A stretch of 64,000 bases of DNA from Abditibacterium sp. (GCA_965199495.1 CBDASK010000003.1:2496001-2560000); one strand, 5' to 3'; positions 744-64,000 are shown, counted from the stretch's first letter. Translations and numbers: made by a program. The notes: generated by a model from the sequence alone, not told the origin.

Positions 744-2642
744 CTACATCTCGTCATTCAGCCGAATGCGGCAAATATCCACGCTATAATCGCGCGCGCC
801 CGCCGCGATAATATAATCGTGGGGCGCTTGAGTAATCGGCGCGAAACGCAGTTTCTCGATGCGCCCGCGCATCGCCGAACCGCCGGGCGTGCGGCGCAAC
901 GTGTAATTGCGAAACACCGCGCCCCGCGCGGTGCGAATGAAAACCGCGTCGGTTTTGCCGACTGCCACCAGACGGCTATCGGGCGACCACGCCACGCATT
1001 CGGGCAAGCCGCCCATGTCATGCTCCCACGACAGCGTGCCTTGCGCGGCGTGCCAGACGCGCAGCCTCGAATCGGCGCCAGTCGTGGCAATCCACTGCCC
1101 GTCGGGCGACCACGTGACGCCCGTCAGCGCGGCACCGTGCGCGGTGATTTGCCCGATGTCGCTCAAATCGTGGCCGCTCCACAGGCGCAACACTCCGTCC
1201 ATAATGCCCGCGACAGCCAGCGCGTTGCCATCGGGCGACCATGCGATGGCCAGCGCGCCCGGCGTGCGCCGCGCCTTGATGGCGCCCGCATCGGCGTTCC
1301 ACAGCGTCACGGCGCCCGCATCAGCCACAGCGAGTTCGCGGCGCGCCGGACAAAACGCCAAATCGCGCACCACGCCCGCGCAATCGGTCAACTGCGCCAA
1401 AGGTTTGCTGTCGCGGCTGACCAAATTGACGCCGTCCCAAATATCAACGCGCTCATCGCGCCCGCCGCTCGCCAGCAAACTGCCGTCGGGCGCGTAGGCC
1501 AGCGCCAAAACGCCGCCCGCGTGCGCGCTCCACATCGCGCGCGCCGGAGTGATGGTATCGTGCCAGTTCCACTCGCAAATTTTGCTGTCGGCGCCGCCCG
1601 AAATCAGCCGCTTACCGTCGGGCGCAAACGCCAGCGCCAACACTGGCGCGATGTGCCGTTTCATCGTCGAATTGATCAACGCCGCGTGCGTGCCCGCCGC
1701 GTCAACGCCCGCGACATCTGGCGCCGCCATTGGCGCCGTGGCTGCTGTCGAGGCGGCTCCGATTGGCGGCGGCGGGCGGCGCGCGGGCGATTTTTGACCT
1801 TTGAGTTGCGCCTCGAATTCGCCCGCCGATTGCGGGCGGCGCGCGAATTCCATCGCTAACGCGCCCATAATCGCGTCGGTGAGCAAGGGCGTCAAGCCCG
1901 GTCGGAGCGATTCGAGTTTGGGGAGCGGAACGTCGGCGGCGCGGTCGGTGGCGGCGACGGGTTTGGTTCCGCTCAGCGCGTGATAGAGCGTGGCGGCCAG
2001 AGCGTAAATATCGCTGGCCGGGCCGCGTTTGGCGTTGGAGGCGTATTGTTCGAGCGGCGCGTAACCCGGCGTCACGATTTGCGTCATTTTGGTCGCGCTA
2101 TGGTCAAAAGCGCGCGCCGTGCCGAAATCAATCAAAACCGCGCCGCCGCTCCGGCGCAAAATCACGTTATCGGGCTTAATATCGCGATGCAAAACGCCCG
2201 CGCCATGAACAACCGCAAGCGCGCCCGCCAAGCGCGAACCGATGTCGGTCACTTCCCATTCGTCCAATCGCGTTTTGTCCTGGATGCGCGCTTCGAGCGT
2301 CTCGCCCTCGATCCATTCCATCACCATGTAGGCAGTGTTATTTTCTTCAAATGTGCCCGCGACGCCGACGATGCCGGGATGCTGGAAGCGGCCCAAAACG
2401 CGCGCTTCGTTGAGAAATTCGGCGACGCCCCGATGAAGAGCCACGGCGTCGGCCATCACGACATCGCGGCCCTGGCGCAACGCGCCCGCCGGGAAGTATT
2501 CTTTGATGGCGACGTAACGTTTGAGCGCCATATCGCCGCCTTTGTAGGTGATGCCGAAGCCGCCCTGCCCCAAAACTTCGCCGAGGGCATAGGTGCCGTT
2601 GTGAAGTCGAGTGCCGCGAGGCAGGGCGGAAGTGGAAGGCAT
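744..2642 (-). CDS. Hanks-type Ser/Thr protein kinase with C-terminal WD40 beta-propeller
   Basis: GQGGFG loop, VAIKE, HRDIKPDN, DFG and YAPLE motifs, followed by repeats of the type LAFAPDG...SGGAD...W. Confidence 0.95.
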   Translation of the reverse strand: MPSTSALPRGTRLHNGTYALGEVLGQGGFGITYKGGDMALKRYVAIKEYFPAGALRQGRDVVMADAVALHRGVAEFLNEARVLGRFQHPGIVGVAGTFEENNTAYMVMEWIEGETLEARIQDKTRLDEWEVTDIGSRLAGALAVVHGAGVLHRDIKPDNVILRRSGGAVLIDFGTARAFDHSATKMTQIVTPGYAPLEQYASNAKRGPASDIYALAATLYHALSGTKPVAATDRAADVPLPKLESLRPGLTPLLTDAIMGALAMEFARRPQSAGEFEAQLKGQKSPARRPPPPIGAASTAATAPMAAPDVAGVDAAGTHAALINSTMKRHIAPVLALAFAPDGKRLISGGADSKICEWNWHDTITPARAMWSAHAGGVLALAYAPDGSLLASGGRDERVDIWDGVNLVSRDSKPLAQLTDCAGVVRDLAFCPARRELAVADAGAVTLWNADAGAIKARRTPGALAIAWSPDGNALAVAGIMDGVLRLWSGHDLSDIGQITAHGAALTGVTWSPDGQWIATTGADSRLRVWHAAQGTLSWEHDMGGLPECVAWSPDSRLVAVGKTDAVFIRTARGAVFRNYTLRRTPGGSAMRGRIEKLRFAPITQAPHDYIIAAGARDYSVDICRIRLNDEM

Positions 2643-2691
2643 TTTGTGTGCTATAAGTATTGTAAGTTAGATATTGCGCCATTGGCCGGTT

Positions 2692-2852
2692 TGTCATTTC
2701 GAGCGCCGGGTGCCCCCTGGGCGGCAGAAATCTTTTGGCCCCGCGCCAGCGGAAATGATGCAAAAGCCTGAAGGTGAAAACCGCTCCAACTGCGCTGCCG
2801 CGCGGGCGCAAGATTTCTGCCGCCCAGGGGGCACCCGGCGCTCGAAATGACA
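2692..2852. repeat. Intergenic palindromic element (MITE/REPIN-like)
   Basis: Perfect 43-bp inverted arms at 2692-2734 and 2810-2852. Confidence 0.85.
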
Positions 2853-2859
2853 GGCCACT

Positions 2860-3732
2860 TCAACCCGCGCGCCCGTCTTTAACCGTCACTGCGCCCGCGT
2901 TGCGGCTCTCCAACACGCCCTCGAACGGCACCGACTGGTTGGGCGTGTATTTCGGCAACGTCTGCGGCGGCGTCGCATCAAGATCAATCGTCACTTTTAA
3001 AGCGCCTTTGACGTTTTTGCAATTGACAATTAGCGGCCCGGTGGCTGCATTGCCCAGGCTGACGAACTCGCCGCGCCAGTTGATTTTCTTGCCCTGAACC
3101 GAATCCCAGTAAAGCGATTGTTGCTGCGGCGTGCCCGTCGTGAGATTGGCGTAAAGTTCGTCAAATGTCGGCCCGCTTGCAGCCACGGCGCCGGTTGTCG
3201 GTGCGGCAGTCGCGTTTGGCGTTGGTTCGCTTGTCGGCGCCGTCGTCGCTTGCGCGGTTGGCGCGACCGTCGGTTGCGCGGTTGTGGCGGGCACAATCGG
3301 CGCGAGCGCCGTCGTCGCGCTGGGCGTAGGAGCCACGGCGACCGTCGGCGCCGGTTTTTTGCCCAGCAACGCCCACAACGCCATGCCCAGAAGCAACCAT
3401 CCCAAGCCGCCCGCGACCATCGCCCACGCGGGGACTTGCACCTTGTTTTGCGCGCGCTGCGCCATCGTCGGCGCGCCTTTTGGCGTTGGCGATTCAACAA
3501 TCGGCGTCGGTTTCGCTTCGCCCATCGGCGGAATTGCGACGGTTTTGGCGCCCGCATCGGTCGGCGTGGCAGATGGCGCGACGACGGGTTGCGGCGCCGA
3601 CTTTTGGGGCACATCTTTGGGCGCGACATAACCCGGCGCCCACGGCAACGCCGCGCCGCATTTGTAGCATTTCTCGACGTATTTCGAGTTTTTGGCGCCG
3701 CAAACGGCGCACTGGCCGAGATCAACTTTCAT
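2860..3732 (-). CDS. Zn-ribbon, single-TM protein with Pro/Thr/Ala linker and small C-terminal extracytoplasmic domain
   Basis: N-terminal CAVC-x10-CYKC, one TM segment (AWAMVAGGLGWLLLGMALWALLG), PT-rich linker. Confidence 0.8.
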   Translation of the reverse strand: MKVDLGQCAVCGAKNSKYVEKCYKCGAALPWAPGYVAPKDVPQKSAPQPVVAPSATPTDAGAKTVAIPPMGEAKPTPIVESPTPKGAPTMAQRAQNKVQVPAWAMVAGGLGWLLLGMALWALLGKKPAPTVAVAPTPSATTALAPIVPATTAQPTVAPTAQATTAPTSEPTPNATAAPTTGAVAASGPTFDELYANLTTGTPQQQSLYWDSVQGKKINWRGEFVSLGNAATGPLIVNCKNVKGALKVTIDLDATPPQTLPKYTPNQSVPFEGVLESRNAGAVTVKDGRAG

Positions 3733-3754
3733 GATTTTAGTTTAGATTTAACCT

Positions 3755-5590: not shown

Positions 5591-5600
5591 AATGTAAAAG

Positions 5601-5734
5601 GGGACAGGAAACAGGAGACAAGGGAGACGGGGGAAACGCTACTCTCGCCAGACGCGCCTTAAAAGTCATAGTCACCCGATTGTTGTCATGCTCATTTCCT
5701 GTCTCCTGTTTCCCTCGTTTCCTGTCTCCTGTTC
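5601..5734. repeat. Imperfect inverted repeat built from short GGAAACA/GGAGACA units
   Basis: Purine-rich arm at ~5601-5638 and complementary pyrimidine-rich arm at ~5694-5734. Confidence 0.55.
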
Positions 5735-7140: not shown

Positions 7141-7170
7141 GATTTTAAGTCGTTTGAATTTCTTGTGCTT

Positions 7171-7267
7171 CGTAGAGACACCGACTTGTCGTGTCTAAAA
7201 AGGTCTGATTTGCTTCAACTTTGCGATAGCTCCGACGTTTTAGACACGACAAGTCGGTGTCTCTACG
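7171..7267. repeat. GTAG-type REP doublet (REPIN-like), copy 1
   Basis: Perfect 30-bp arms at 7171-7200 and 7238-7267. Each arm is GTAG plus an internal palindrome (AGACACCGACTTGTCGTGTCT). Confidence 0.88.
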
Positions 7268-7288
7268 GGGCACGATAGAAACCGAAAC

Positions 7289-9238: not shown

Positions 9239-9254
9239 AACTTGGGAGAAATTT

Positions 9255-9349
9255 GTAGAGACGCCGATTTATCGCGTCTAAAACGTGAATGAATTCGTGA
9301 AGTTTGCGGGCACTTCCACGTTTTAGACGCGATAAATCGGCGTCTCTAC
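9255..9349. repeat. GTAG-type REP doublet (REPIN-like), copy 2
   Basis: Perfect 33-bp arms at 9255-9287 and 9317-9349 (GTAGAGACGCCGATTTATCGCGTCTAAAACGTG). Confidence 0.88.
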
Positions 9350-9358
9350 GGCATTGCA

Positions 9359-10003: not shown

Positions 10004-10050
10004 AGGACGCATTCTATTTTAGTTGATTCGGTGGACAAATTCGCCAAATA

Positions 10051-11247: not shown

Positions 11248-11314
11248 CGGAGCAAACGCACCAGAGTCGCGCGCTGGAAGTATGAAATAATTCGAGATGA
11301 GTTGACGAAAAACC

Positions 11315-41558: not shown

Positions 41559-43127
41559 ATGAATCATCCCAAAGTTGAACTCTACGACACGACGCTCCGC
41601 GACGGCGCGCAGGCCGAAGGCGTCTCGTTTTCCGTCCTCGACAAACTCAAAATCGCGCGTCGTTTGGACGAATTCGGCATTCATTACATCGAAGGCGGCT
41701 GGCCCGGCTCCAATCCCAAAGACGAAGAGTTTTTCGCGCTCGCCCAAAAAGAAAAGTTTCGCAACGCGCAATTATGCGCTTTCTCTATGACGCGGCGCGC
41801 GAACATCGAACCGCAAGACGACGCCAATTTGCAGACCATCGTCGCCGCGCAAACGCCCGTCGTGATGCTCGTCGGCAAATCGTGGGATTTTCATGTCACT
41901 GAAGCCTTGAAAGTTCCGCTCGACGAAAATTTGCGCATGATCGAAAGCAGCGTGCGCTGGGTAAAATCGCAGGGGCGCCGCGTGTTTTTCATCGCCGAAC
42001 ATTTTTTCGATGCGCTGCAAAAATCGCCCGAATACGCGATGAAAACGCTCGAAGCCGCCGCCAACGGCGGCGCCGAATTGCTGGCTTTGCCTGATACCAA
42101 CGGCGGCGCTTTGCCCGCGCATATCAGCCACGGCGTGAGGCAAGTGTTGGAAATGTTCGATTTGCCGGTCGGAATTCACACGCACAACGACTGCGAACTC
42201 GCCGTGGCTAATGCTCTGGCTGGCGTCGAAGCGGGCGCGACGCAGGTGCAGGGCGTCATCAACGGGTTCGGCGAGCGTTGCGGCAATTGTAATCTGGTTT
42301 CGGTGATCGGCAATTTGCAGCTTAAAATGGATCGGCCCGTTGTCAGCGCTGAAAAATTGAAAGGCTTGACGGCGCTCAGTCATTACGTCGCCGAAATCGC
42401 CAATATGACGCCCAACGAGCGCCAGCCGTTCGTCGGGCGCGCCTGTTTCGCGCACAAAGGCGGCATGCACGTTGACGCCGTGCAAAAAGCGGGCGGCGCC
42501 GCCTACGAACATATCGAGCCGCAGAGCGTGGGCAACGAACGGCGCATTTTGATTTCGGATTATTCGGGCACTTCCAACGTGCGCGAAGTCGCCTCCGATT
42601 TGGGCTATGAATTGCCCAAAGGAAGCCCCGAAGCCACGGCGATTCTGCGCGAAGTGAAGCGATTGGAAAATCAAGGCTACGAATTCGAGAGCGCCGACGC
42701 CAGTTTCGCGCTCTTAATCCAGCGCGCGCTGGGCCGCGAAGAGAAAAAATTCGAGTTGTTGAGCGTGCGCGTTATCAACGAATTTCGCCCCGGCCTAACC
42801 GAATGGATTACCGAAGCGACGCTCAAAATCCGCGTCGGCGACGAAATTCAGCACACTGTCGCCGAAGGAGATGGCCCAGTTCACGCGCTCGATAACGCGT
42901 TGCGGCTGGCGCTTCGCGGCGCTTATCCGCAGTTGGACGAAATTCGCCTCGCCGATTTCAAAGTCAGAGTCGTGAATACAAGCGAAGGCACGGCGGCCAA
43001 AGTGCGCGTTTCGATTGATTCGGGAAGCGGCGAAAAAACTTGGGGAACCGTCGGCGTTTCGACTAACGTTATCGAGGCGAGCTGGCAGGCTTTGACCGAA
43101 GCGATTGAATTTGGATTGGAAAATTAG
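41559..43127 (+). CDS. cimA: (R)-citramalate synthase (LeuA/CimA family)
   Basis: YDTTLRDGAQAEG, IEGGWPGSNPKD, GKSWDFHV, FAHKGGMH, GYEFESADASF and the C-terminal regulatory domain. Confidence 0.9.
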   Translation: MNHPKVELYDTTLRDGAQAEGVSFSVLDKLKIARRLDEFGIHYIEGGWPGSNPKDEEFFALAQKEKFRNAQLCAFSMTRRANIEPQDDANLQTIVAAQTPVVMLVGKSWDFHVTEALKVPLDENLRMIESSVRWVKSQGRRVFFIAEHFFDALQKSPEYAMKTLEAAANGGAELLALPDTNGGALPAHISHGVRQVLEMFDLPVGIHTHNDCELAVANALAGVEAGATQVQGVINGFGERCGNCNLVSVIGNLQLKMDRPVVSAEKLKGLTALSHYVAEIANMTPNERQPFVGRACFAHKGGMHVDAVQKAGGAAYEHIEPQSVGNERRILISDYSGTSNVREVASDLGYELPKGSPEATAILREVKRLENQGYEFESADASFALLIQRALGREEKKFELLSVRVINEFRPGLTEWITEATLKIRVGDEIQHTVAEGDGPVHALDNALRLALRGAYPQLDEIRLADFKVRVVNTSEGTAAKVRVSIDSGSGEKTWGTVGVSTNVIEASWQALTEAIEFGLEN

Positions 43128-44309: not shown

Positions 44310-44337
44310 CGCCGTGGCTACTTATGCAGCCACGGCG
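44310..44337. terminator. Hairpin formed by an inverted pair of CGCCGTGGCT
   Basis: CGCCGTGGCT-ACTTATGC-AGCCACGGCG, ~26 nt past the stop of the esterase gene. Confidence 0.55.
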
Positions 44338-45605: not shown

Positions 45606-46352
45606 CTATAAGCGCGCCAATCTTCCCGCGTCCACGGGAATGACGCTGCCGGTGATGAACTGCGCCTCGCGCGAGGCCAGAAAACAGATGGTTTTGGCGA
45701 CCGACTCGCTCGAAGCCACGGCGCCTTCGAGCTTTTCTTCGCCCGACTGCAAATTGGGATTCGTCCACAAAAGCGGCGTGTCCACCGCGCCCGGCGCGAC
45801 GGCGTTGACGCGCACATGAAGCGGCTCGGCTTCGATGGACAAAGCGCGCGTGAACGCTTCGAGGCCGCCTTTGCTGGCGGCGTAGGCCGACACGTTGCGC
45901 GTGGTGGCCTGCGCGTGAACGCTCGAAACGTTGACGATTGAACCACCTTTGCGTCCGTCTTCGTGGCGAAAATGCGGTAGTGCGTATTTGCTAAACAAAA
46001 ACGCCGCGCGCAAATTCACGCTCATCACCCGATCCCAATCGGCTTCGGCCAAATCAATCACCGGCTGAAAACGCATGATACCCGCGTTGTTGATGAGAAC
46101 TTCGATGCGGCCCCACCTTTCGACGACGTGATTGACGACGCCTTGTACATCGGCGCTTTGCGAAACGTCGGCGTAAAGATAGATGGCCGATCCACCGTCG
46201 CGCTCGATTTGAGCAACGGCTTTGCAGCCCGCCTCACGGTCAATATCCACGATGGCGACTTTGGCACCCTCGCGGGCGAGTTGGAGGCTGGTGGCCAAGC
46301 CGATGCCGGAGCCACCGCCGGTCACGATTGCGATGTGATTGGGAAAATTCAC
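45606..46352 (-). CDS. Short-chain dehydrogenase/reductase
   Basis: TGGGSGIG, NNAG, YAASK. GTG start is assumed. Confidence 0.9.
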   Translation of the reverse strand: MNFPNHIAIVTGGGSGIGLATSLQLAREGAKVAIVDIDREAGCKAVAQIERDGGSAIYLYADVSQSADVQGVVNHVVERWGRIEVLINNAGIMRFQPVIDLAEADWDRVMSVNLRAAFLFSKYALPHFRHEDGRKGGSIVNVSSVHAQATTRNVSAYAASKGGLEAFTRALSIEAEPLHVRVNAVAPGAVDTPLLWTNPNLQSGEEKLEGAVASSESVAKTICFLASREAQFITGSVIPVDAGRLARL

Positions 46353-46645
46353 GGGGTAATACCTTGTCGCCTTCAGGGAATTGGCGACTTTTCTAACGGA
46401 AATACTCTCTGGCAAAGGGGACGCCTAAAAATCCATAATAAAACGTTTAATTCAAGTTTTAGTAATGAGTTGAAATCGGGTTTTTTCGAGCTTATATCGC
46501 GAATGTAAAAATGAGATTAACGATGCGTCGCGGCGCGGTTAAAACCCCTATTGCTGTGAACTTCGCGCGCGCGAAACGATGTTTATCGTTTGAGCGTCTT
46601 GCCATTAAACGCCCGCGAAACGAAAAGTTCCCGGCGCCATTTAAA

Positions 46646-47941
46646 ATGACTGGAACAACCATTGGCACTTTCTGGAATCGTCAAATCGAAGCCGCAGGTT
46701 TGGCCGACATCGCCGAAAAAACCGAAAACGGCGAACGCCTTTCCGCCGACGACGGAATGCGACTTTATGGGTCGCCGCATCTCAACGTCGTCGGTTATCT
46801 CGCCAACCGTGTTCGCGAGCGCAAAAACGGCAACGTGGCTTATTGGGTGCGTAATCAGCACGTCAATTACACCAACATTTGTAACAAAGGGTGTCTGTTC
46901 TGTTCGTTCTACGCCAACCCCAAAGACGACGCGCGCGCCTATTGCATGACGCCGCAACAGGCCGCGCAGAAAGTCACCAATTATGGCGACGTGCCGATTT
47001 CCGAGATTCACGTCGTCGGCGGCGTCAATCCGAAGTTGCCTTACTCGTATTATGTCGAGTTGTTGCAGGCCATCAAAGCCGCGCGACCCGATGCGCATAT
47101 CAAGGCGTTCACGATGGTCGAAATTGACCAAATCGTGCGCGCGGCCAAACGCGTCGGGTTGGAAACGCCCGCGCAGGTTTTCGAGGATTTGAAGCGCGCT
47201 GGCCTCGACGCTTTGCCCGGCGGCGGCGCCGAAGTAATGAGCGAACGCGTTCACGAAGATTTGTTTTATGCCAAACCCGACGCCGCGCGCTGGCTGGAAT
47301 TGGCGCGCGCGGCGCATTTGTCGGGGCTGAAAACCAACGCGACGCTTTTATACGGCCACGTCGAGCAGACGCCGGAGAAAATCGAGCATTTTCTCAAACT
47401 GCGCGAATTGCAAGACGAAACCGGTGGCTTTTTAACGTTCATTCCGCTTTCGTGGCATCCCGAAAAAACGGCTTTGGAAGAATTGCGCCCGCCGACGGGC
47501 GTCGAAGATTTGCGCGAGATCGCTGTGGCTCGTTTGATGCTGGATAATTTCCCGCACATCAAAACGTTCTGGATTATGAACACGGCGCCGGTTTCACAAA
47601 GCGCGCTGTGGTATGGCGCCGACGATATGGACGGGACGATCATGGAATACGAAATTATCCGCGACCCATCGCGCGACCGCAAACAGGTTTTGACTTCGCG
47701 CGAAATGGTTGAGATGATTCTCGAAGCGGGCCGCGAACCGCTCGAACGCGACCCGTTCTACCACGTTTTGTCGCGCGGATTGGAAAGCGTGACTGATGTC
47801 GAAACTTTATTGAGCGAACAAAGCGCCGATTTGATTCAGCCGACGGCGAATCTGGGCATTACGCAACGCGCGGGTATTACGACGGCGGCGCAGGCGCATC
47901 TGGAAAAAGGCCGCAAATTGATTGCGCTCGAAGCGCGCTGA
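46646..47941 (+). CDS. mqnE: Aminofutalosine synthase (radical SAM, CofH/MqnE family)
   Basis: NYTNICNKGCLFCSF, EIHVVGG, HIKAFTMVEI, PGGGAE, NATLLYGHVE, LDNFPHIK. Confidence 0.85.
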   Translation: MTGTTIGTFWNRQIEAAGLADIAEKTENGERLSADDGMRLYGSPHLNVVGYLANRVRERKNGNVAYWVRNQHVNYTNICNKGCLFCSFYANPKDDARAYCMTPQQAAQKVTNYGDVPISEIHVVGGVNPKLPYSYYVELLQAIKAARPDAHIKAFTMVEIDQIVRAAKRVGLETPAQVFEDLKRAGLDALPGGGAEVMSERVHEDLFYAKPDAARWLELARAAHLSGLKTNATLLYGHVEQTPEKIEHFLKLRELQDETGGFLTFIPLSWHPEKTALEELRPPTGVEDLREIAVARLMLDNFPHIKTFWIMNTAPVSQSALWYGADDMDGTIMEYEIIRDPSRDRKQVLTSREMVEMILEAGREPLERDPFYHVLSRGLESVTDVETLLSEQSADLIQPTANLGITQRAGITTAAQAHLEKGRKLIALEAR

Positions 47942-48622
47942 CAATTGGATTATGGAAACCAAGAACATCTACCGAGCCGCCTCGATGGGGGATGAAGAAT
48001 CTCTTTTAAAGTTGATAAGGAAAGGGGCGGATGTAAACGCCAAAGATGAGCAACAGCTTCCGCCATTACATTACGCCGCCTATAGAGGTCGGAGCAATAC
48101 GTTGCAAATTCTGTTGGATCATGGAGCCGAAGTGAACACTTCTAATGGTATCGGTTACACGCCGCTTATGGTTGCTTCGCGCGAAGGCAGAACGGATGCC
48201 GTGCGCCTATTGCTGGAATACGGCGCCGCAGTAAACGCCACTTCGATCTCCGGGCAAATGGCCCTATCTTTTGCGGCGACTTATGCACATTCTGGCGTCG
48301 TGCAACTGCTTTTAGAGCATGGCGCAACCGTAAAGGGAAAAGGGGCCGAGTCCGCTTTGCTGGGAGCCGCATTGAACGGTAACAGCGACAATGTGCACCT
48401 CTTGTTGGTTGCCGGTGTTGACTTTCGTGCCACCAATAACGGTGGGAAAACCGCTCTGGATTTGGCATCCGAACCGGGCCGAGCCGAAATAGGAAGGGCC
48501 ACCGTGCGTCAACTACTCCAAGACGCGGATGCAGGCCGCTGATAACAATCGTTGCTACGCGTGTGAGCACGTCGGATAAAGCGTAGAAGTAACCGCTTTA
48601 ATAGGATTGCGCTCGAAGCGCG
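47920..48622. mobile_element. Inserted cassette bounded by an 18-bp direct repeat of the mqnE 3' end
   Basis: GATTGCGCTCGAAGCGCG at 47920-47937 and 48605-48622. Confidence 0.65.
47952..48542 (+). CDS. Ankyrin repeat protein
   Basis: Repeated PLHYAA/TPLMVAS...LLEYGAAVN motifs; atypical codons (AGG, AGA, GGA, ATA). Confidence 0.92.
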   Translation: METKNIYRAASMGDEESLLKLIRKGADVNAKDEQQLPPLHYAAYRGRSNTLQILLDHGAEVNTSNGIGYTPLMVASREGRTDAVRLLLEYGAAVNATSISGQMALSFAATYAHSGVVQLLLEHGATVKGKGAESALLGAALNGNSDNVHLLLVAGVDFRATNNGGKTALDLASEPGRAEIGRATVRQLLQDADAGR

Positions 48623-48663
48623 TTTGCAGTTACGATAATTCGATTCTCAAAAAGCCTAATTTT

Positions 48664-48715
48664 ACATTTGGATTGCCTCCGGCCTTTTTCACGCCGGAGG
48701 CAATCCAAATGTTTT
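48664..48715. terminator. Hairpin/terminator between convergent genes
   Basis: 20-bp arms ACATTTGGATTGCCTCCGGC / GCCGGAGGCAATCCAAATGT followed by TTT. Confidence 0.75.
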
Positions 48716-48749
48716 CGCAGCCCAATTTCACAATTGTTAGGCGCTGATT

Positions 48750-49208
48750 TTACCAATCGAGCGTGGTTTCAAAACTGTTATTATCTTCGTTGCTTTCCTT
48801 AATGCGTTGCACATCATCAACGACGGCGCGAATCGTGTGTTTGCCGGGCGTAATTTTCCACGTCGCGCTGCCGTTGGGGCCGCCATTCGAGCGCAGAATC
48901 GCGAATTGGCCGGGCTTCAAATCCTGACGGTAAGTATCCGACCATGCGACGAATTCGCCGTCCACGTAAAACGCGACGCCGTGAGCCACATCTTTTTTGG
49001 TGGCAGCAGCGCCGTGATTTTCGATGCGCGCGATCAAATGCGCATTGGTGCCGACTTGACCTTCGCTTTCTGTAACACCGACGCTGGTGACAACTAAATC
49101 GGGTAAATTATTCATCGAATTGGTCGTGGGTTGCGCTGTAACGCTTTGGCTCAGCGCGACGGAAAGACTGGCACCGACGAGTAAAAGAGCGGGTAAAAGA
49201 AGTTTCAT
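48750..49208 (-). CDS. Secreted stand-alone CARDB (Ig-like) domain protein
   Basis: Signal peptide; LPDLVVT...G.HTIRAVVD...IKESNEDNN. Confidence 0.85.
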   Translation of the reverse strand: MKLLLPALLLVGASLSVALSQSVTAQPTTNSMNNLPDLVVTSVGVTESEGQVGTNAHLIARIENHGAAATKKDVAHGVAFYVDGEFVAWSDTYRQDLKPGQFAILRSNGGPNGSATWKITPGKHTIRAVVDDVQRIKESNEDNNSFETTLDW

Positions 49209-49455
49209 ACTTGGTTTGGAGCATCCTGTGCTTCTCAAAGTTTTGCGGGCGAGTTTACTTCTCGTCTGAGGAAAAAGCTCGTGAATTAGGCGGGCTTGAA
49301 GCGCATCGATAGTTAGACCTTTGCATCAATGAGGAGATGAGTAGGAAGCCGTAGAGTAACAAAATGGAAGATTTCTTGCAAGCTAAAGCCGTGCTGATTT
49401 ATGCGCAAAGAACGTTTCTTTATCTCGACCAATAACGCTCTTTGGGTTGCAAACA

Positions 49456-49941
49456 ATGAAGACTAACTCAGAGTTACAAATTCAGCAACGTTTATCGGAC
49501 AGTTCGTGTTCTGATGCGCTGCTGGCCGAATCGCCATTGGTATCGCCACGCGATGCGAACGCGCGTCCCGTCTGGCCCGCATTGCTACGCTTTGTGGTGG
49601 GTGGTGGCACCTGCTTCATGGTTAATCTGGCGATATTGTGGGTTGCCACCGAAAAGTGGAAGTGGCATTATTTGATCGCAATGGCTCTGGGGTGGAGTGT
49701 GGTGTTTGTTTTAGGATTTTTCCTGCATCGTCACTGGACTTTTGAATCGCACTCTTCGAGCGTTCTGGGGGCGGCTCGACGTTACTTCGTGGTGAATCTG
49801 GGGCAGACGCTGGTTTCCACGGGTTTGTTAATTCTTTTGGTTTCGGGATTCGGTCTGGCTCCTTGGTTCGCCAGCATCCTCCTCGGCGCGTCGTTCATGG
49901 TTTTTAGTTTTCTGCTGCACCGGAACTGGAGTTTCGCGTGA
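49456..49941 (+). CDS. GtrA family membrane protein
   Basis: LRFVVGGG, FFLHRHWTF, four TM segments. Confidence 0.85.
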   Translation: MKTNSELQIQQRLSDSSCSDALLAESPLVSPRDANARPVWPALLRFVVGGGTCFMVNLAILWVATEKWKWHYLIAMALGWSVVFVLGFFLHRHWTFESHSSSVLGAARRYFVVNLGQTLVSTGLLILLVSGFGLAPWFASILLGASFMVFSFLLHRNWSFA

Positions 49942-51110
49942 CCCAACCAATGCAGAAACGGGCGCGGCGCGTGTTGGTTGTCACGAATTATTTTTCGACT
50001 CATTTGGGCGGTATTCAGTTGGTGGCGCACCAACTGGTGCGACATTTGGCCGCGCAACATCCCGATTGGCGGTTCGACTGGTGCGCCAGCGCGAGCGATG
50101 CGTTGCCCGATGTCGCGCCCGCCGTGCGCTGTCACGCAATGAGCGGTTGGAACGGCATCGAAGAGCGTTCGGGTTTTCCCTATCCCTTGTGGTCTCCGGG
50201 CGCCGTGCTGCGATTGTGGCATTTGGTTGGGCGCTGCGACGTGGCTCACTTGCACGACTTCGCCTATATGGGAAATATTGTCGCCGCATTATTTTGTGTT
50301 TTGCGCGGCAAACCTTACGTGGTGACGCAACATACCGGTTGGGTGCCCTATGACAATTTGGCGATGCGCGCGATATTGAGGACGGCGATTAAAACCGTGG
50401 GCCGCGCGGTTTTGCGAAACGCACGGCGCGTGGTTTTCGTGTCGGATACGGTCAACGGTTTTTTTTCGGGTCGCATGAAGTTGCGCCGCCAAACGCTGGC
50501 CAACGGTGTGGATACCCAATTGTTCGTGCCGGTTGATGCAACCACGCGCGCGCGCTTGCGGCGCGAGAACGGATTGGACGAAGCGGCGCCCGTCGCGATT
50601 TTTGTCGGTCGTTTCGTCGAGCGCAAAGGTTTTCCTCTGATTTTGGAGATGGCCGCGCGAACGCCCGATGTGCAGTGGATTGTCATGGGCAGTGGCCCAT
50701 TAGATCCGGGCGAAAATGTGCCGCCCAATGTGCGCGTGTGGCGCGGGCGGCGCGGCGCTCAAGTCGCGCAGGCGATGCAGCTCGCGGATGCGTTGGTCTT
50801 ACCCTCGCAAAACGAAGGTTTTCCGCTTGTTGTGCAAGAAGCTCTGGCGTGCGGAACGCCGGTTCTCTTTGAAACGAATTTAGCGCAGGCGCTGCCCGGC
50901 GTCGCCGCTCGGCTCACGACTCAAGCGTTGGGCACGCCCGACGATGCCGCGCTCTGGAGCGCTCGTCTGCGCGCGGTTTTGGACGCGCACGAAACGCAGT
51001 CGCAGCGCGAAAAGCGTGCGAATTGGGCGCGTCAGACCTGGAATTGGGATGTTTGCGCTCGCCAATATGGCGAACTGCTCGAAGCCGTGATGCTTGAGGC
51101 GCGCTCGTGA
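49938..51110 (+). CDS. Glycosyltransferase family 4
   Basis: HLGGIQ, ANGVD, FVGRFVERKG, EGFPLVVQEALACGTP. Confidence 0.92.
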   Translation: MTQPMQKRARRVLVVTNYFSTHLGGIQLVAHQLVRHLAAQHPDWRFDWCASASDALPDVAPAVRCHAMSGWNGIEERSGFPYPLWSPGAVLRLWHLVGRCDVAHLHDFAYMGNIVAALFCVLRGKPYVVTQHTGWVPYDNLAMRAILRTAIKTVGRAVLRNARRVVFVSDTVNGFFSGRMKLRRQTLANGVDTQLFVPVDATTRARLRRENGLDEAAPVAIFVGRFVERKGFPLILEMAARTPDVQWIVMGSGPLDPGENVPPNVRVWRGRRGAQVAQAMQLADALVLPSQNEGFPLVVQEALACGTPVLFETNLAQALPGVAARLTTQALGTPDDAALWSARLRAVLDAHETQSQREKRANWARQTWNWDVCARQYGELLEAVMLEARS

Positions 51111-56420: not shown

Positions 56421-57092
56421 ATGCAGTCAAATAACTTAATTCCGCTCGAAGCGATTCAAATCGCCCAACCGTGCCGCGCCGATTGGCACCGTATGACTGG
56501 CGACGAGCGCGCCCGCTTTTGCGGCAGTTGCCACAAAAATGTCTACGATATTTCGCAAATGACGCGCGACGAAGCCTACGATCTCATCGCCGAAAAAGAG
56601 GGCAATTTATGCTTGCGCTTGCACCGCCGTCCCGATGGAACGGTGATCACTTCGGATTGTCCGGTCGGCATTGCAGCCACGCCGCGTCCGTTGTGGTTCG
56701 GCGTGGCTGCACTGGTGGCCCTGATCGGTTCGGGACTGGCCGGATGTGCCACGCAGAGCGAGACGATGGGCGACATCGCGCCGGTCGCCGCGCTCGACAA
56801 TCGAAAATTGGAAACTCCGCCCGTCGCGCCGGTAAAAGTCGAGACGCCGCGGATGAATTTCGGCAACGTCGAATCGGTGCCTTTTACCAACGGTTCGTCG
56901 AATGAACATTCGAGCGTAACTATGGGCGCGCCGATGATGCCGCAACCGACGCCGAAAAGCACGCCAAAACCGCAACCGACCGATGAGCCGCTGATGGGCA
57001 AACCGACGATGGGCGAGCCGACTTTTCCTCATGCTGCCAATCAAACGACAACGATGGGCGACAGCGCGCCGGTTTATCCGGATGCGCGCTGA
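56421..57092 (+). CDS. Hypothetical protein with Cys-rich N-terminal domain, TM segment and Pro-rich tail
   Basis: PCRADWHRMTGDERARFCGSCHKNVYD...CLR...TSDCP, TM segment, repeated (T/L)MG units. Confidence 0.75.
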   Translation: MQSNNLIPLEAIQIAQPCRADWHRMTGDERARFCGSCHKNVYDISQMTRDEAYDLIAEKEGNLCLRLHRRPDGTVITSDCPVGIAATPRPLWFGVAALVALIGSGLAGCATQSETMGDIAPVAALDNRKLETPPVAPVKVETPRMNFGNVESVPFTNGSSNEHSSVTMGAPMMPQPTPKSTPKPQPTDEPLMGKPTMGEPTFPHAANQTTTMGDSAPVYPDAR

Positions 57093-58323: not shown

Positions 58324-58397
58324 AGCGCGCTCTTTTTGGTGGTTTTCGGGACTTGAGTTGTGTTTCGGGAGCGCGCTTTGCAAGTTGTGCGGCTCTC

Positions 58398-59396: not shown

Positions 59397-59408
59397 TTTT
59401 GGACGCCC

Positions 59409-59442
59409 AAGGCGGCGTGGCTGGTAGCAGCCACGCCGCCTT
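59409..59442. terminator. Hairpin between convergent genes, formed by an inverted pair of CGGCGTGGCT
   Basis: AAGGCGGCGTGGCT-GGTAGC-AGCCACGCCGCCTT. Confidence 0.7.
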
Positions 59443-60562: not shown

Positions 60563-60564
60563 CT

Positions 60565-61323
60565 TCACAAATTTAACACTTTCTGCCGATACGCCTCGGC
60601 GTTCCAACCGGCGATATATTCGACTTGGTCGTCCGACAAAAACGTCGGGCCGCCCAACGCCGCCGCGCCCAGCCAGATGTGCGCGGCTTTTTCGGCCATT
60701 AACGTCGTCGCCAAAACCGCGTCGGGCGTCTTGCCTAAAGCGATTATTCCGTGATTACCCAGCAAAATCAGACGCGGCACTTGATTCCACTTTTGGCGAA
60801 ACGCCTCGACTTCCTCGCGAATTTTGCGCGCGAGCGGCACGCCCGGATTGATGGTGGGCACCCAAACTGATTGCGCGCCGCAACAGACGATTTCGTCGGG
60901 AAACAATCGCTTGCTCGCAAATTCAGATGCGCGCGGGCTGCAAACGATGGCGTTGACGGCGATGGGATGCGTGTGGCCGACGAAATGAACATCGGGCAAA
61001 CCCAATAAATAGGCGTGAAATAGCGCTTCGGTCGAAGGTTTGCGATCTGATTCAAAAGCGCGCGAGGCTAACAACGCGGTTTCGATTTCGTCATCGGAGA
61101 ATTCGGGATGCTCAAATAATTCCGTAACTTGGGCGCGCCGACAACGAGCCACGCCGCCCGCGTCGAGTGTGGAAAGCGAACTGCCGCTGGCTTTGACGGC
61201 GAACAAATCGTTGTCCAAACGCATCGAGGTGTTGCCCTCGCCCAAAATGGCGAGGCCGCGTTTTTCTTCGCCCAGTTGGTGCGAAAGGTCGAGCAGAGAT
61301 TGAATATTGGATAAGTTCTTCAT
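60565..61323 (-). CDS. Class II aldolase/adducin family protein
   Basis: GEGNTS, KASG, KPSTEALFH, HTHP, LGNHG. Confidence 0.9.
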   Translation of the reverse strand: MKNLSNIQSLLDLSHQLGEEKRGLAILGEGNTSMRLDNDLFAVKASGSSLSTLDAGGVARCRRAQVTELFEHPEFSDDEIETALLASRAFESDRKPSTEALFHAYLLGLPDVHFVGHTHPIAVNAIVCSPRASEFASKRLFPDEIVCCGAQSVWVPTINPGVPLARKIREEVEAFRQKWNQVPRLILLGNHGIIALGKTPDAVLATTLMAEKAAHIWLGAAALGGPTFLSDDQVEYIAGWNAEAYRQKVLNL

Positions 61324-62358: not shown

Positions 62359-62643
62359 TGATTTGACGATGCTCGCTTGCCAACATGAGCGGGTGTCGTC
62401 GCTCCCTTTCATCGCGACAACGCGAAACCAACAAATCGCTTAAAAACGAGCCGCGCGAGTTAGACCGCGTGGCTCGTTCGTCTGTGTCATTCGATTTGGC
62501 TGATGCTCTAAAGCTGTGTGAGAATAAATTGCGACAGAACGAAGCGTCAGCCTCGCTCCCCTCGTTTTATCGCAATTGCCAAATCAAATTCGGCGCGCCA
62601 CTTGCCACCGACATTACCTCTAAATTTTCGTCTTTAATCTCCG

Positions 62644-64000
62644 ATGCCCACCCCCGATGCTTTCGATGCCTTTTATGCGCCCGACGATGCCGCCGCCAGC
62701 GATGAATCTCCGTCCGAACCCGATGTGCAAAACGAGCATGAACATGATAACATCGAATATGTCTTGCGCATGGCGCGCGACCGCAAAGTCAAGTTCGTGC
62801 GCCTGTGGTTCACCGATATTTTGGGCATCCTGAAAAGTGTGGCGATTATCGCCGACGAACTGGAAACCGCTCTCCACGAAGGCATTACTTTCGATGGCGC
62901 GGCCATCGAAGGGTTTTCGCGCGAAACCGAAAGCGATATGATCGCTTTGCCCGATCCGGAAACTTTCGTGCTGCTGCCGTTTGCCGACGACGAAGGCGCC
63001 GTGGCTCGTCTGTTTTGCGATATTATCCGCCCCGACGGTTCGCCCTCACAAACCGATCCGCGCCACATTCTCAAAACGCAATTGAAGGCGGCGGGCAAAC
63101 TGGGCTTTACGTTTTATGTTGGCCCCGAAGTCGAATACTTCTACTTCAAAACGATGCCCGACAACCAGCCACGGCGCCCCGAACCGCTCGATCACGGCGG
63201 CTATTTCGATTTAACGCCGCACGATTTGGCCTCGCCACTCCGCCGCAAAACCGCTTTAACCTTGGAAAAAATGGACATCGGCGTCGAGTCGAGCCATCAC
63301 GAAGGCGCGCCGTCGCAGCACGAAATAGACCTGCGCTACACCGACGCTTTAACGATGGCCGATTCGTTAATGACGTTTCGTCTGGTCGTCAAAGAAATCG
63401 CGGCGGAAAACGGCGTGTTCGCCACCTTCATGCCCAAGCCTTCGGTTCATTACAACGGTTCGGGCATGCACATCAACATGAGTTTGTTCAAGGGCGGCAA
63501 AAACGCGTTTTACGACCCGAAAAAGCCCGACGAAATGTCGGCGACCGCGCGCTATTTTCTGGCCGGTTTGCTCAAGCATTCGGCGGAACTGACGCTGTTT
63601 ACCAACCAGTGGGTCAACTCCTATAAGCGTCTGGTGCCCGGTTTCGAGGCGCCGACGCGCGCGACCTGGGCGATGCGCAGTCGCGACGATTTGGTGCGCG
63701 TGCCGGCGTTCAAGCCGGGCCGCGAGAGCAGTCGTCGCGTCGAATATCGCTCGCCCGACGCCGCGTGCAATCCGTATTTAGTTTTCGCATTATTATTGGC
63801 GGCGGGTTTGGACGGCATCCGCAACAAAATGCCGTTGGACGAAGAAAGCAACGAGGCCGCGACCGAACTCCCGACCAGCCTGGGCGAAGCGATTCGCGCG
63901 TCGCAAAACTCCAAGTTGGCGCGCGCGGTTTTGGGCGATTTGTTATTCGAGAAAGTTTTGGCCAACAAACGCGCCGAATGGGAAAATTATCGCGCGCAGG
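62644..64000 (+). CDS. glnA: Glutamine synthetase type I family protein, 3' end outside window
   Basis: Manual translation: FVRLWFTDILG, FDGAAIEGF, GPEVEY, HHEGAPSQHE, FMPKP, NGSGMH, NSYKRLVPGFEAP, EYRSPDAACNPY. Confidence 0.9.
   Translation, partial: MPTPDAFDAFYAPDDAAASDESPSEPDVQNEHEHDNIEYVLRMARDRKVKFVRLWFTDILGILKSVAIIADELETALHEGITFDGAAIEGFSRETESDMIALPDPETFVLLPFADDEGAVARLFCDIIRPDGSPSQTDPRHILKTQLKAAGKLGFTFYVGPEVEYFYFKTMPDNQPRRPEPLDHGGYFDLTPHDLASPLRRKTALTLEKMDIGVESSHHEGAPSQHEIDLRYTDALTMADSLMTFRLVVKEIAAENGVFATFMPKPSVHYNGSGMHINMSLFKGGKNAFYDPKKPDEMSATARYFLAGLLKHSAELTLFTNQWVNSYKRLVPGFEAPTRATWAMRSRDDLVRVPAFKPGRESSRRVEYRSPDAACNPYLVFALLLAAGLDGIRNKMPLDEESNEAATELPTSLGEAIRASQNSKLARAVLGDLLFEKVLANKRAEWENYRAQ

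What the first reader, a model, noticed from the sequence alone, without database searches (positions are those of the whole stretch)
1734..63176. Highly iterated non-palindromic 10-mer CGNCGTGGCT(GC): candidate DNA uptake sequence
Seen in sequence: I count about 48 exact CGNCGTGGCT/AGCCACGNCG copies by hand, roughly 1 per 1.3 kb. Twenty-two are CGCCGTGGCT: forward at 1734, 9704, 10783, 32921, 34108, 37498, 42200, 44310, 62997; reverse at 2439, 3181, 3331, 8615, 10462, 17255, 36087, 42126, 44328, 45714, 52615, 58286, 63167. About 13 are CGGCG-, 8 CGACG- and 5 CGTCG- variants. A rough base-composition estimate expects about 1 copy, or a few more allowing for CG richness. The motif sits inside genes in at least five reading frames (A-A-T-A, A-V-A, A-W-L, Q-P-R, S-H-G) and shows no clear strand bias. 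It forms inverted pairs at gene ends. I saw none in the foreign-looking IS982, ankyrin cassette or NTase gene. Established: this combination of density, frame independence, terminator pairs and depletion in acquired DNA characterises Neisseriaceae DUS and Pasteurellaceae USS. Inference: this may be an independent self-DNA uptake signal in an unrelated lineage, or another genome-wide protein-binding or recombination signal.
Basis: partly seen in the sequence, partly recalled or inferred. Interest (0 to 1): 0.88.

Follow-up and report, generated by a model that had tools for sequence, protein, structure and literature searches.

The report
Genome-wide iterated DNA word CGNCGTGGCT
A ten-base DNA word is written about 2,900 times into the chromosome of this Abditibacteriales bacterium, mostly by silent codon changes, much like the 'self' tags by which Haemophilus and Neisseria recognise their own DNA, in a phylum where I found no such tag described.

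Summary
The window has 49 exact CGNCGTGGCT copies against about 1.2 expected. The chromosome has 2,913 copies, and this is its commonest 10-mer and 12-mer. Enrichment is 20-fold over a synonymous-codon shuffle and 8-fold over a dinucleotide-preserving shuffle. There is no strand or replichore polarity. The two small contigs and the ICE, prophage and defence islands almost lack the word.

The word arises in place by synonymous changes: 30% of all [AGDV]-Val-Ala contexts carry it, against 0.6% expected. Only the three closest of 13 genus genomes have it. One of them uses a dialect with the same core, CGTGGCTG, and different flanks.

Copies on the same strand avoid each other below about 1 kb, while opposite-strand copies do not. 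A Pasteurellaceae-type control (recalled USS core) shows the same pattern over about 400 bp. A Neisseria-type control shows it only below 100 bp.

My best reading is a USS-like uptake or recombination self-tag (about 0.4). A Chi-like signal read directionally is the main rival (about 0.2). ComEC, ComEA, DprA, ComM, secretins and pilus ATPases are present but do not discriminate. No reader protein was identified and function is untested. This scan has noted comparable iterated words in other genomes.

The parts
1734..63176 (.). 49 exact copies of CGNCGTGGCT. Forward starts: 1734, 9155, 9704, 10783, 21748, 22254, 22441, 24032, 27665, 28706, 32921, 34108, 36194, 37498, 39804, 42200, 44310, 50237, 51675, 54522, 56699, 59413, 61800, 62997. 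Reverse starts: 2439, 3181, 3331, 8615, 10462, 17255, 25146, 26181, 28813, 30465, 33869, 36087, 40961, 42126, 42632, 44328, 45714, 52615, 53984, 54801, 56675, 58286, 59429, 61147, 63167.
   Evidence: 49 matches; 0 of 100 shuffles reach 49 (mean 1.21). The genome-wide logo is [C>G]-G-V-CGTGGCT-G-C-(T).
44310..44337 (.). Convergent pair forming a hairpin (two 10-mers, starts 18 bp apart) in the spacer just 3' of the minus-strand alpha/beta-hydrolase gene (44364-45455).
   Evidence: listed there as C3 2540310, '+-', spacing 18, intergenic.
59413..59438 (.). Convergent pair forming a hairpin in the 45-bp spacer between convergent genes: aldo/keto reductase (58353-59396, +) and a WD40 protein (59441-60607, -).
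   Evidence: C3 2555413, '+-', spacing 16, intergenic.
56675..56708 (.). Divergent (tail-to-tail) pair, starts 24 bp apart, inside ORF 56421-57092 (+), which has no Pfam match.
   Evidence: C3 2552675, '-+', genic.
42126..42209 (.). Opposite-strand pair 74 bp apart inside the LeuA/HMGL-like gene (41559-43127, +).
45724..50236 (.). Longest word-free stretch of the window (4.5 kb). It covers a radical-SAM gene, the ankyrin-repeat gene (47922-48542) and a CARDB gene. GC falls to 0.51 at 48-50 kb.

Best explanation
The word [C>G]G-V-CGTGGCT-G-C is a short 'self' tag read by a protein on the DNA of the resident chromosome.

Shown: it arises in place, one base at a time and mostly at silent codon positions. 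It is then kept far better than its surroundings. It is missing from recently acquired DNA.

Inferred: its spread is a molecular drive coupled to recombination with DNA of the same kind. The most likely form is an uptake signal for natural transformation that works like the Pasteurellaceae USS. A DNA receptor on the uptake machinery (type IV pilus, secretin, ComEA, ComEC) would prefer fragments that carry the word. Such fragments would recombine more often, so any mutation that creates the word is over-transmitted. A new copy would gain little when a copy already lies on the same strand within about 1 kb, which would give the observed even, strand-wise spacing.
For: Abundance:
- C3 carries 2913 copies. 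The word is the commonest 10-mer and 12-mer of the genome.
- Genes hold 2659 copies against 132 +/- 10 after synonymous shuffling and 327 +/- 13 after a dinucleotide-preserving third-position shuffle.
- 1237 of 4160 [AGDV]-Val-Ala contexts carry the full word against 26 expected. This is despite GCT being a rare Ala codon, at 10% of Ala codons.

The signal is at the DNA level:
- The same flank preferences appear at 351 intergenic core sites and on the antisense strand.

No polarity:
- 508 forward and 506 reverse copies in one skew arc, 936 and 963 in the other.

Foreign DNA lacks it:
- Contigs C1 and C2 hold 1 and 2 copies, against about 15 and 40 expected at chromosomal density.
- The largest word-free gaps hold serine recombinases, a TrwB-like coupling protein and relaxase, Mrr, TIR, an Eco57I-type methylase, DndB, and phage capsid and portal genes.

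Orthologous sites:
- 98 of 144 G000 sites are perfectly kept in G011 at 85% nucleotide identity, against 24% expected.
- In outgroups only 2 of 33 and 1 of 31 sites are kept. The differences sit at motif positions 0, 3, 6 and 9, which are third codon positions in the dominant reading frame, and there are no indels.

Dialect:
- G004 uses T-a-GGA-CGTGGCT-GGTGTC, at the same core density of about 0.9 per kb.

Likeness to a Pasteurellaceae-type (USS-rich) control genome, G785 (426 kb, 261 copies of the recalled USS core):
- At 30-400 bp there are 5 same-strand pairs and 20 opposite-strand pairs, with 29 expected of each.
- G000 shows 77 and 323, with 333 expected of each.
- One-off variants are barely enriched in G785, in the DUS-type control and in G000 alike.

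Machinery present: ComEC, DprA, 8 secretin-domain matches, ComEA-type HHH_3, 8 T2SSE ATPase matches and ComM.
Against: - No uptake or transformation data exist. I found no paper linking Abditibacteria to competence: 10 papers hold both words, none in title or abstract, and I saw the listing only.
- ComEC is in 13 of 13 genus genomes, yet the word is enriched in only 3. The machinery therefore does not explain the distribution, and no receptor was identified.
- The word is denser in genes (0.66 per kb) than in spacers (0.34 per kb).
- Hairpin pairs at gene ends are rare. About 16 intergenic close pairs were found genome-wide. The Neisseria-type control has 97 opposite-strand pairs closer than 30 bp in 400 kb.
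- Same-strand exclusion reaches about 1 kb, further than in either control. It leaves opposite-strand pairs untouched, which an orientation-blind receptor does not obviously predict.
- The controls are samples of about 400 kb from one genome each. They were identified only by their counts of DUS and USS cores that I recalled from memory.
- Gene calls are from my own crude ORF caller.
Confidence: 0.4

Rival explanations
1. Chi-like self marker. The word would be read on one strand by a translocating helicase-nuclease, or another directional machine. It would stop degradation or start recombination on broken or incoming DNA. Each orientation would serve one direction of travel, and chromosomes rich in the word would be spared while foreign DNA is not.
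For: - Exclusion is strictly same-strand below about 1 kb, while opposite-strand pairs stay at the Poisson level. At 30-400 bp the counts are 77 and 323 against 333 expected of each.
- Same-strand gaps are more regular than exponential at both tails.
- 14 other frequent 8-mers show no such exclusion.
- Specificity for the 7-bp core is sharp.
- Islands and the small contigs lack the word.
- A 1420-aa PD-(D/E)XK plus SF1B helicase-nuclease is present in G000 and G004 (86% identity). It was not found in the 10 motif-poor genus genomes (G001-G003, G005-G010, G012) or in the 8 more distant relatives searched (G013, G014, G025-G030).
Against: - There is no replichore polarity at all, unlike the known Chi sites as I recall them.
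- No RecC was found and no AddAB-type protein.
- The word is 10-18 nt long, against 5-8 nt for known Chi sites (recalled).
- The candidate helicase-nuclease is truncated in motif-rich G011. Only residues 679-1421 remain, with a frameshift, and the nuclease half is gone although synteny is kept.
- It is not syntenic in G004.
- A 45%-identical homologue sits in G016, whose 169-kb sample has no iterated word.
- The three motif-rich genomes are each other's closest kin, so the co-occurrence is a single event.
- The USS control also shows same-strand exclusion, so that feature is not specific to this reading.
Confidence: 0.2
2. A non-palindromic counterpart of cyanobacterial HIP1. The word would be the target of a DNA methyltransferase or a sequence-specific repair activity, and biased short-patch repair would convert near-matches into the word.
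For: - The 7-bp core is sharp and asymmetric, and of the length typical for Type IIG, Type III or BREX-type recognition (recalled).
- Some near-cognates are depleted. CGNCGTGGCG is seen 279 times against 480 expected, and CGNCGCGGCT 184 times against 315.
- G000 has an Eco57I-type methylase with an SNF2 helicase in an island.
Against: - A Vsr endonuclease is found above the family cut-off only in G004 among the three motif-rich genomes. G000 has just a sub-threshold 24.5-bit fragment.
- The Eco57I-type methylase lies in a word-free island, so it is probably a recent arrival.
- Repair bias does not predict same-strand spacing or the dialect with changed flanks.
- The methylome could not be examined. 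Only assembled contigs of public runs are available.
Confidence: 0.12
3. An architectural or nucleoid signal. An abundant DNA-binding protein would bind the word in an oriented way to organise or compact the chromosome, and selection would space the sites evenly.
For: - Spacing per strand is even.
- Position within genes is uniform.
- The core genome is covered while islands are not.
Against: - A housekeeping architectural system restricted to 3 of 13 genus genomes, with flanks that have already shifted between them, is unexpected.
- Selection on each of about 2,900 sites would be very weak without a drive.
- No candidate protein was identified.
Confidence: 0.12
4. A by-product of coding: a favoured peptide, codon pair or dicodon.
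For: 79% of genic copies (2102 of 2657) fall in two frames, encoding [AGDV]-V-A or A-T-[APST].
Against: - The word is 20-fold and 8-fold above nulls that keep the protein and codon or dinucleotide content.
- It uses the rare GCT codon.
- The same word with the same flanks appears at intergenic sites and in antisense.
- Outgroups encode the same residues with other codons.
Confidence: 0.02
5. Copies of a small mobile element (REP, REPIN or MITE).
For: In G004 the extended form sits mostly in spacers (81 of 133 copies). There it forms about 21-bp inverted arms around a short loop, with 41 such doublets in 400 kb, and it begins with GTAGGA as REP heads do (recalled).
Against: - In G000 2657 of 2913 copies are inside genes.
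- Flanks beyond about +/-4 carry no information.
- Orthologous sites differ by substitutions only.
- Y1 transposases are spread through the genus (11 of 12 other genomes) without regard to the word.
Confidence: 0.02

Closest known systems
Uptake signal sequences (USS) of Pasteurellaceae (core AAGTGCGGT, recalled)
   Same: - Thousands of copies, about one per 1.6 kb, equal on both strands and without replichore polarity.
- Mostly inside genes, in a few tolerant reading frames.
- Made by point substitutions.
- Few terminator pairs.
- One-off variants barely enriched.
- Same-strand copies avoid each other while opposite-strand copies much less so.
- Even spacing was noted for USS by Karlin et al., as cited in PMC1939737 (passages read).
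   Different: - The sequence is unrelated and the phylum is different.
- No AT-rich flanking segments.
- Exclusion reaches about 1 kb rather than about 400 bp.
- Restricted to three sister species rather than a whole family.
- Uptake preference and receptor are unknown. For USS a minor pilin has been predicted as receptor (PMC12616744, abstract seen in the listing).
DNA uptake sequences (DUS) of Neisseriaceae and their dialects (PMC3630211, abstract seen in the listing)
   Same: - A 10-12 nt non-palindromic word with a conserved core and lineage-specific flanks (dialects).
- Depleted in mobile elements. That use of DUS is described in PMC7371117 (abstract seen in the listing).
- Equal on both strands.
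   Different: - In the Neisseria-type control, 97 opposite-strand pairs lie closer than 30 bp in 400 kb, out of 440 copies. That is up to 194 copies, or about 44%, in such pairs.
- In that control, spacing at 100-400 bp is depleted for both orientations alike.
- In G000 close pairs are a small minority (132 of 2913 copies are removed when close pairs are dropped), the word is denser in genes than in spacers, and exclusion is strand-specific.
HIP1 (GCGATCGC) of cyanobacteria
   Same: A hyper-abundant short word, about one per kb, written into genes against codon habits, kept at orthologous sites, with function unknown (recalled; also the comparison made by earlier notes of this scan).
   Different: HIP1 is a palindrome linked to a cognate methyltransferase (recalled). 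This word is asymmetric, so strand and orientation matter, and they visibly do.
Chi sites of RecBCD/AddAB (E. coli GCTGGTGG, recalled)
   Same: An over-represented asymmetric word that marks self DNA, with sharp specificity and an orientation-dependent reading. That would fit the strand-wise spacing.
   Different: Chi is 5-8 nt, strongly skewed to the leading strand, and read by RecBCD or AddAB (recalled). Here the word is 10-18 nt, has no skew, and no RecC or AddAB-type protein was found. The G004 dialect contains GCTGGTG, which is 7 of the 8 Chi letters. I take this as probably chance.

Membership tests
DNA uptake sequences (DUS/USS type) | Hyper-abundance beyond composition, codon and dinucleotide nulls | tested here: met
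   49 copies against 1.2 expected; 2659 against 132 and 327 under the two nulls; commonest 10-mer and 12-mer of the genome.
DNA uptake sequences (DUS/USS type) | Both orientations equal, no replichore polarity | tested here: met
   1444 forward and 1469 reverse, balanced in 20 of 20 bins; 508/506 and 936/963 in the two skew arcs.
DNA uptake sequences (DUS/USS type) | Depleted in recently acquired DNA | tested here: met
   C1 has 1 copy and C2 has 2 copies, against about 15 and 40 expected; the word-free gaps are ICE, prophage and defence islands.
DNA uptake sequences (DUS/USS type) | Related lineages carry the same word or dialects of it | tested here: met
   enriched in 3 of 13 genus genomes. 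G004 has the same core with different flanks; G011 has the same word as G000. No word was found in samples of G006, G012, G016 or G019.
DNA uptake sequences (DUS/USS type) | Inverted pairs serving as terminators at gene ends | tested here: inconclusive
   66 opposite pairs under 30 bp against 27 expected; only about 16 close pairs are intergenic. This is far fewer than in the Neisseria-type control and similar to the USS control (12 against 2.4 expected).
DNA uptake sequences (DUS/USS type) | Complete transformation machinery in the genome | tested here: met
   ComEC, DprA, secretins, ComM, ComEA-type HHH_3 and T2SSE ATPases. This does not discriminate: ComEC is in 13 of 13 genus genomes.
DNA uptake sequences (DUS/USS type) | Preferential uptake or transformation by DNA carrying the word | not testable with these tools
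   Needs uptake or competition assays.
DNA uptake sequences (DUS/USS type) | A dedicated receptor (a minor pilin in Neisseria; one predicted in Pasteurellaceae) | not tested
   No candidate was singled out. One protein with a prepilin N-methylation motif plus DUF1559 was seen; I recall that such proteins are numerous in this phylum.
Chi sites | Skew towards the leading strand | tested here: not met
   no skew in any bin or arc.
Chi sites | RecBCD or AddAB reader present | tested here: not met
   no RecC; the only long PDDEXK_1 protein is a nuclease plus SF1B helicase of no named family.
HIP-type iterated palindromes | Palindromic word | tested here: not met
   The sequence itself: CGNCGTGGCT differs from its reverse complement AGCCACGNCG.
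REP/REPIN elements | Extragenic, palindromic units spread by a RAYT transposase | tested here: not met
   2657 of 2913 copies are genic in G000; substitutions only. Y1 transposases do not track the word. The extended G004 form does look REP-like.

The most novel reading that the evidence does not exclude
The word is not an uptake tag but a strand-read stop or 'self' signal for a directional DNA-processing machine that appeared within this genus. One candidate is the clade-restricted PD-(D/E)XK plus SF1B helicase-nuclease. That would make it a Chi-like self/non-self system with a 10-18 nt word, no replication polarity and no RecBCD or AddAB. The same-strand spacing seen here, and in the USS control, would then point to a single-strand or directional reading step also in classical uptake systems.
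Probability: 0.12. Interest if true: 0.9.

Novelty: new variant of a known kind. Interest (0 to 1): 0.68.

Why it matters
If this is an uptake or recombination self-tag, it arose independently of the Neisseriaceae and Pasteurellaceae systems, in Armatimonadota/Abditibacteriota. No transformation has been reported for that lineage in the papers I could search.

It is also young. Three sister species have it and ten genus mates do not. The flank preference has already shifted in one species. That makes the unknown reader findable by a simple contrast of gene content, which the old, family-wide DUS and USS systems do not allow.

The strand-wise spacing rule is a new quantitative constraint on how such words are read. 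I found no report of it in the searches I ran. It also appears in the USS-rich control.

This scan has now met comparable words in several phyla, so the phenomenon may be general.

Tried and rejected
Candidate readers:
- Y1/RAYT transposases: found in 11 of 12 other genus genomes, so they do not track the word.
- Vsr: above the family cut-off only in G004 among the motif-rich genomes; G000 has a sub-threshold fragment.
- RecC: none found.
- AddAB-type: none found.
- The 1420-aa helicase-nuclease looked promising, being present in G000 and G004 and absent from the 10 motif-poor genus genomes. However, it is truncated in G011, not syntenic in G004, and has a 45% homologue in G016, whose sample has no word. 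PADLOC and NCBIfam give only helicase-core likeness. I keep it as a weak lead.

Dialects in more distant kin: none found in the samples fetched, namely G012 (200 kb), G006 (200 kb), G016 (169 kb) and G019 (110 kb). These are samples, not whole genomes.

Public sequencing runs: no RNA holder is listed, and all 7 runs are kept only as assembled contigs. Read ends, nicks and modification could not be examined, and read laying was not used.

Literature:
- No paper links Abditibacteria to competence (listing only).
- The word itself appears only as chance matches, apparently within longer primer or gene sequences (8 of 110 listed; listing only).
- No report of orientation-specific spacing of uptake sequences was found (listings; PMC1939737 passages).

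Technical misses:
- One search was a parameter error, corrected.
A smaller request was answered.
- timed out and was rewritten.
- The pattern carried a needless run of N plus W, which halved the counts but still singled out G785.

Full report
**Observation.** The window holds 49 exact copies of CGNCGTGGCT or its complement. Dinucleotide-preserving shuffles give a mean of 1.21 and a largest count of 5, and 0 of 100 reach 49. The window is G000:C3:2496001-2560000 in a 4.81-Mb assembly of three contigs.

Genome-wide, AGCCACGGCG is the commonest of all 10-mers (1374 copies) and CGCCGTGGCTGC the commonest 12-mer (690 copies). Chromosome C3 carries 1444 forward and 1469 reverse copies, balanced in each of 20 bins. 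The small contigs C1 (24.7 kb) and C2 (64.6 kb) carry 1 and 2.

The logo is [C>G]-G-V-CGTGGCT-G-C-(T), and no information lies further out. The same flanks are seen at 351 core sites that lie in spacers.

**Organism.** The cytochrome oxidase subunit I of the window is 97% identical to a record titled 'MAG: Abditibacteriales bacterium'. The gene content fits such a lineage: Ser/Thr kinases with WD40, FHA and PP2C domains, alternative complex III, a caa3 oxidase and futalosine-type radical-SAM genes.

**Not a coding artefact.** I used my own crude ORF caller, which gave 3586 genes and 85% coding. With it, 2657 copies are genic (0.66 per kb), 247 are intergenic (0.34 per kb) and 9 span a boundary.

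All six frames occur, but two dominate. Sense xxC-GNC-GTG-GCT accounts for 1236 copies and antisense xxA-GCC-ACG-NCG for 866.

Shuffling synonymous codons within genes leaves 132 +/- 10 copies. A third-position shuffle that preserves every dinucleotide leaves 327 +/- 13. The observed count is 2659.

Of 4160 [AGDV]-Val-Ala contexts, 1237 (29.7%) carry the full word against 26 expected from codon usage, although GCT makes up only 10% of Ala codons.

**No polarity.** The two arcs defined by the weak cumulative GC skew hold 508/506 and 936/963 forward/reverse copies. Copies are spread uniformly along genes, and sense to antisense is 1471 to 1193.

**Foreign DNA lacks it.** Four of 235 20-kb windows hold two copies or fewer, against a mean of 12.3. 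The largest gaps encode:
- serine recombinases, a TrwB-like coupling protein and a relaxase;
- Mrr and a pentapeptide-TIR protein;
- an Eco57I-type methylase with an SNF2 helicase;
- DndB and queuosine-type genes;
- an ImuB-DnaE2-LexA cassette;
- phage capsid and portal proteins.

**Distribution and dialect.** I searched 41 genomes, G000 among them. CGNCGTGGCTG is enriched only in G000 (2180), G011 (1838) and G004 (739). The other ten genomes of the genus have 17-59 copies, like the reversed-pattern control.

These three are also each other's closest kin. G011 is about 87% and G004 about 80% identical in DNA to G000, and the rest about 75%.

G011 uses the same word. G004 uses T-a-GGA-CGTGGCT-GGTGTC. 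GGACGTGGCTGGTGT occurs 105 times in 400 kb of G004 and 3 times in all of G000, while the core CGTGGCT is equally dense in both, at 897 and 960 per Mb.

In G004 the extended form is mostly intergenic (81 of 133 copies). It often forms long hairpins, with 41 doublets in 400 kb. G004 also keeps the G000-type word inside genes in the same frames (64 of 66 copies).

Samples of G012, G006, G016 and G019 (110-200 kb each) show no comparable word.

**How copies arise.**
- In 204 kb aligned between G000 and G011 (85.3% identity), 98 of 144 G000 sites are perfectly kept, against 24% expected. Seen from G011, 98 of 123 of its sites are shared.
- Against G004 (80% identity), 24 of 144 G000 sites are kept. 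Seen from G004, 24 of 38 of its sites are shared with G000.
- In G012 and G006 only 2 of 33 and 1 of 31 sites are kept.

The differences sit at motif positions 0, 3, 6 and 9, which are third codon positions in the dominant reading frame, and no indels are involved. T at position 9 is found in only 22-24% of outgroup sites. The word is therefore written in place by silent substitutions and is then conserved.

**Spacing.** Neighbouring copies alternate in orientation more often than chance: +- 900 and -+ 899, against ++ 544 and -- 569. The ratio of observed to expected same-strand pairs rises smoothly with distance:

| Distance (bp) | Observed / expected |
|---|---|
| 0-30 | 0.04 |
| 30-100 | 0.14 |
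| 100-200 | 0.21 |
| 200-400 | 0.27 |
| 400-700 | 0.46 |
| 700-1000 | 0.74 |
| 1000-1500 | 0.87 |

Opposite-strand pairs stay at expectation, apart from an excess below 30 bp (66 against 27).

The effect holds both within and between genes. It is repeated in G011, where at 30-700 bp there are 13 same-strand and 33 opposite-strand pairs. It is absent for 14 other frequent 8-mers. Same-strand gaps are more regular than exponential at both tails.

**Controls with real uptake sequences.** I found two genomes by their counts of the recalled DUS 12-mer and USS core:
- G094, 1.83 Mb, with 1437 copies of the DUS 12-mer.
- G785, 2.0 Mb, with 1273 copies of the USS core.

I fetched 400 kb and 426 kb of them. 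Pair counts at 30-400 bp:

| Genome | Same-strand | Opposite-strand | Expected of each |
|---|---|---|---|
| G094 (DUS) | 46 | 50 | 89.5 |
| G785 (USS) | 5 | 20 | 29.3 |
| G000 | 77 | 323 | 333 |

In G094 both orientations are depleted alike, and same-strand avoidance is specific only below 100 bp (2 against 15). G094 also has 97 opposite-strand pairs closer than 30 bp. In G785 the binomial p for the same-strand deficit is 0.002, and there is no difference beyond 400 bp.

So the strand-wise rule is shared with the mostly intragenic USS, over a shorter range. It does not by itself argue against an uptake signal.

One-off variants are barely enriched in all three systems: 1.2-fold for USS, 1.8-fold for DUS and 1.1-fold for the G000 core.

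To my knowledge the USS observation is not in print: two searches and the passages of PMC1939737 mention only even spacing and orientation-independent uptake.

**Machinery.** G000 has the following:
- ComEC and DprA;
- eight secretin-domain matches;
- a ComEA-type HHH_3 protein;
- eight T2SSE ATPase matches;
- ComM.

ComEC is in 13 of 13 genus genomes, so none of this explains why only three carry the word.

No RecC and no AddAB-type protein were found. Y1 transposases and Vsr do not track the word.

A 1420-aa protein with an N-terminal PD-(D/E)XK nuclease and a C-terminal SF1B helicase is present in G000 and G004. It was not found in G001-G003, G005-G010 or G012-G014. However, G011 keeps only its helicase half, with a frameshift, in conserved synteny. 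The G004 copy lies elsewhere in the genome. A 45% homologue sits in G016, whose sample has no word. It matches no named family. I treat it as a lead only.

**Reading.**
- Shown: a short asymmetric word, read at the DNA level with sharp specificity, accumulates by silent substitutions. It is conserved, marks resident against acquired DNA, is spaced evenly per strand, and has begun to diverge in its flanks between sister species.
- Inferred: a protein reads it, and a drive linked to recombination spreads it.

Its anatomy is closest to the Pasteurellaceae USS, so I put an uptake-type self-tag first (about 0.4). A Chi-like directional self marker comes second (about 0.2). A methylation or repair-driven HIP-like word, or an architectural signal, come after (about 0.12 each). 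Coding bias and mobile-element origin are contradicted for G000.

**Novelty.** I found no paper on this word, or on competence in Abditibacteria, in the library searched. Earlier notes of this scan describe comparable iterated words in other phyla. This is therefore one more, independent case of a recurring and still unexplained class. It stands out for its recent birth within a genus and for the strand-wise spacing rule.

Noticed in passing
window 18592-18746: A roughly 155-bp palindromic, MITE-like repeat lies between the ActB-like gene and the NrfD-like gene. The same stretch matches dozens of places on both strands in G011 and G004 (78-84% identity).
   Followed up: partly
G000:C3:2766476-2882794 (outside the window): There are 132 copies of a CRISPR-type repeat word with a median spacing of 66 bp, spread over 116 kb. 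This suggests one very large array or several arrays.
   Followed up: partly
G004:C8:1900001-2300000 (L102-L121): REP-like intergenic hairpins occur as 41 doublets in 400 kb. Each has two roughly 21-bp arms carrying the extended dialect of the word (CGACACCAGCCACGTCCTACG, a loop of about 10 nt, then the complement). The arm begins with GTAGGA, like REP heads (recalled). The dialect also contains GCTGGTG, which is 7 of the 8 letters of E. coli Chi (recalled).
   Followed up: partly
G785 (L224-L248), a USS-rich control genome: Copies of the recalled USS core on the same strand avoid each other at 30-400 bp: 5 pairs against 20 opposite-strand pairs, with 29 expected of each. I did not find this property of a classical uptake sequence in the papers searched.
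   Followed up: partly
G000:C3:4111365-4115630 (L193:5365-9627:-): A 1420-aa nuclease-helicase (N-terminal PD-(D/E)XK, C-terminal SF1B) of no named family lies next to a bacterial topoisomerase IB. It is present in G000 and G004, truncated to the helicase half in G011, and was not found in the 10 motif-poor genus genomes or in 8 more distant relatives searched.
   Followed up: yes
window 744-11316: A cluster of eukaryote-like signalling genes on the minus strand: two Ser/Thr kinases (one fused to WD40 repeats), a VWA protein, a kinase-PP2C fusion, an FHA protein with a zinc ribbon, and an FHA-trypsin protease fusion.
   Followed up: no
G000:C3:1160001-1260000 (L184-L188): A roughly 100-kb stretch poor in the word holds three large serine recombinases, an Eco57I-type methylase with an SNF2 helicase, an ImuB-DnaE2-LexA mutagenesis cassette, and DndB- and TGT-like genes suggestive of a DNA-modification defence system.
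   Followed up: partly
G000:C3:4229001-4269000 (L189-L190): A prophage-like region has capsid and portal genes together with QueC-QueF, GTP cyclohydrolase I and a radical-SAM gene. This suggests 7-deazaguanine modification of phage DNA. An IS605 OrfB/TnpB-type gene lies at one edge.
   Followed up: no
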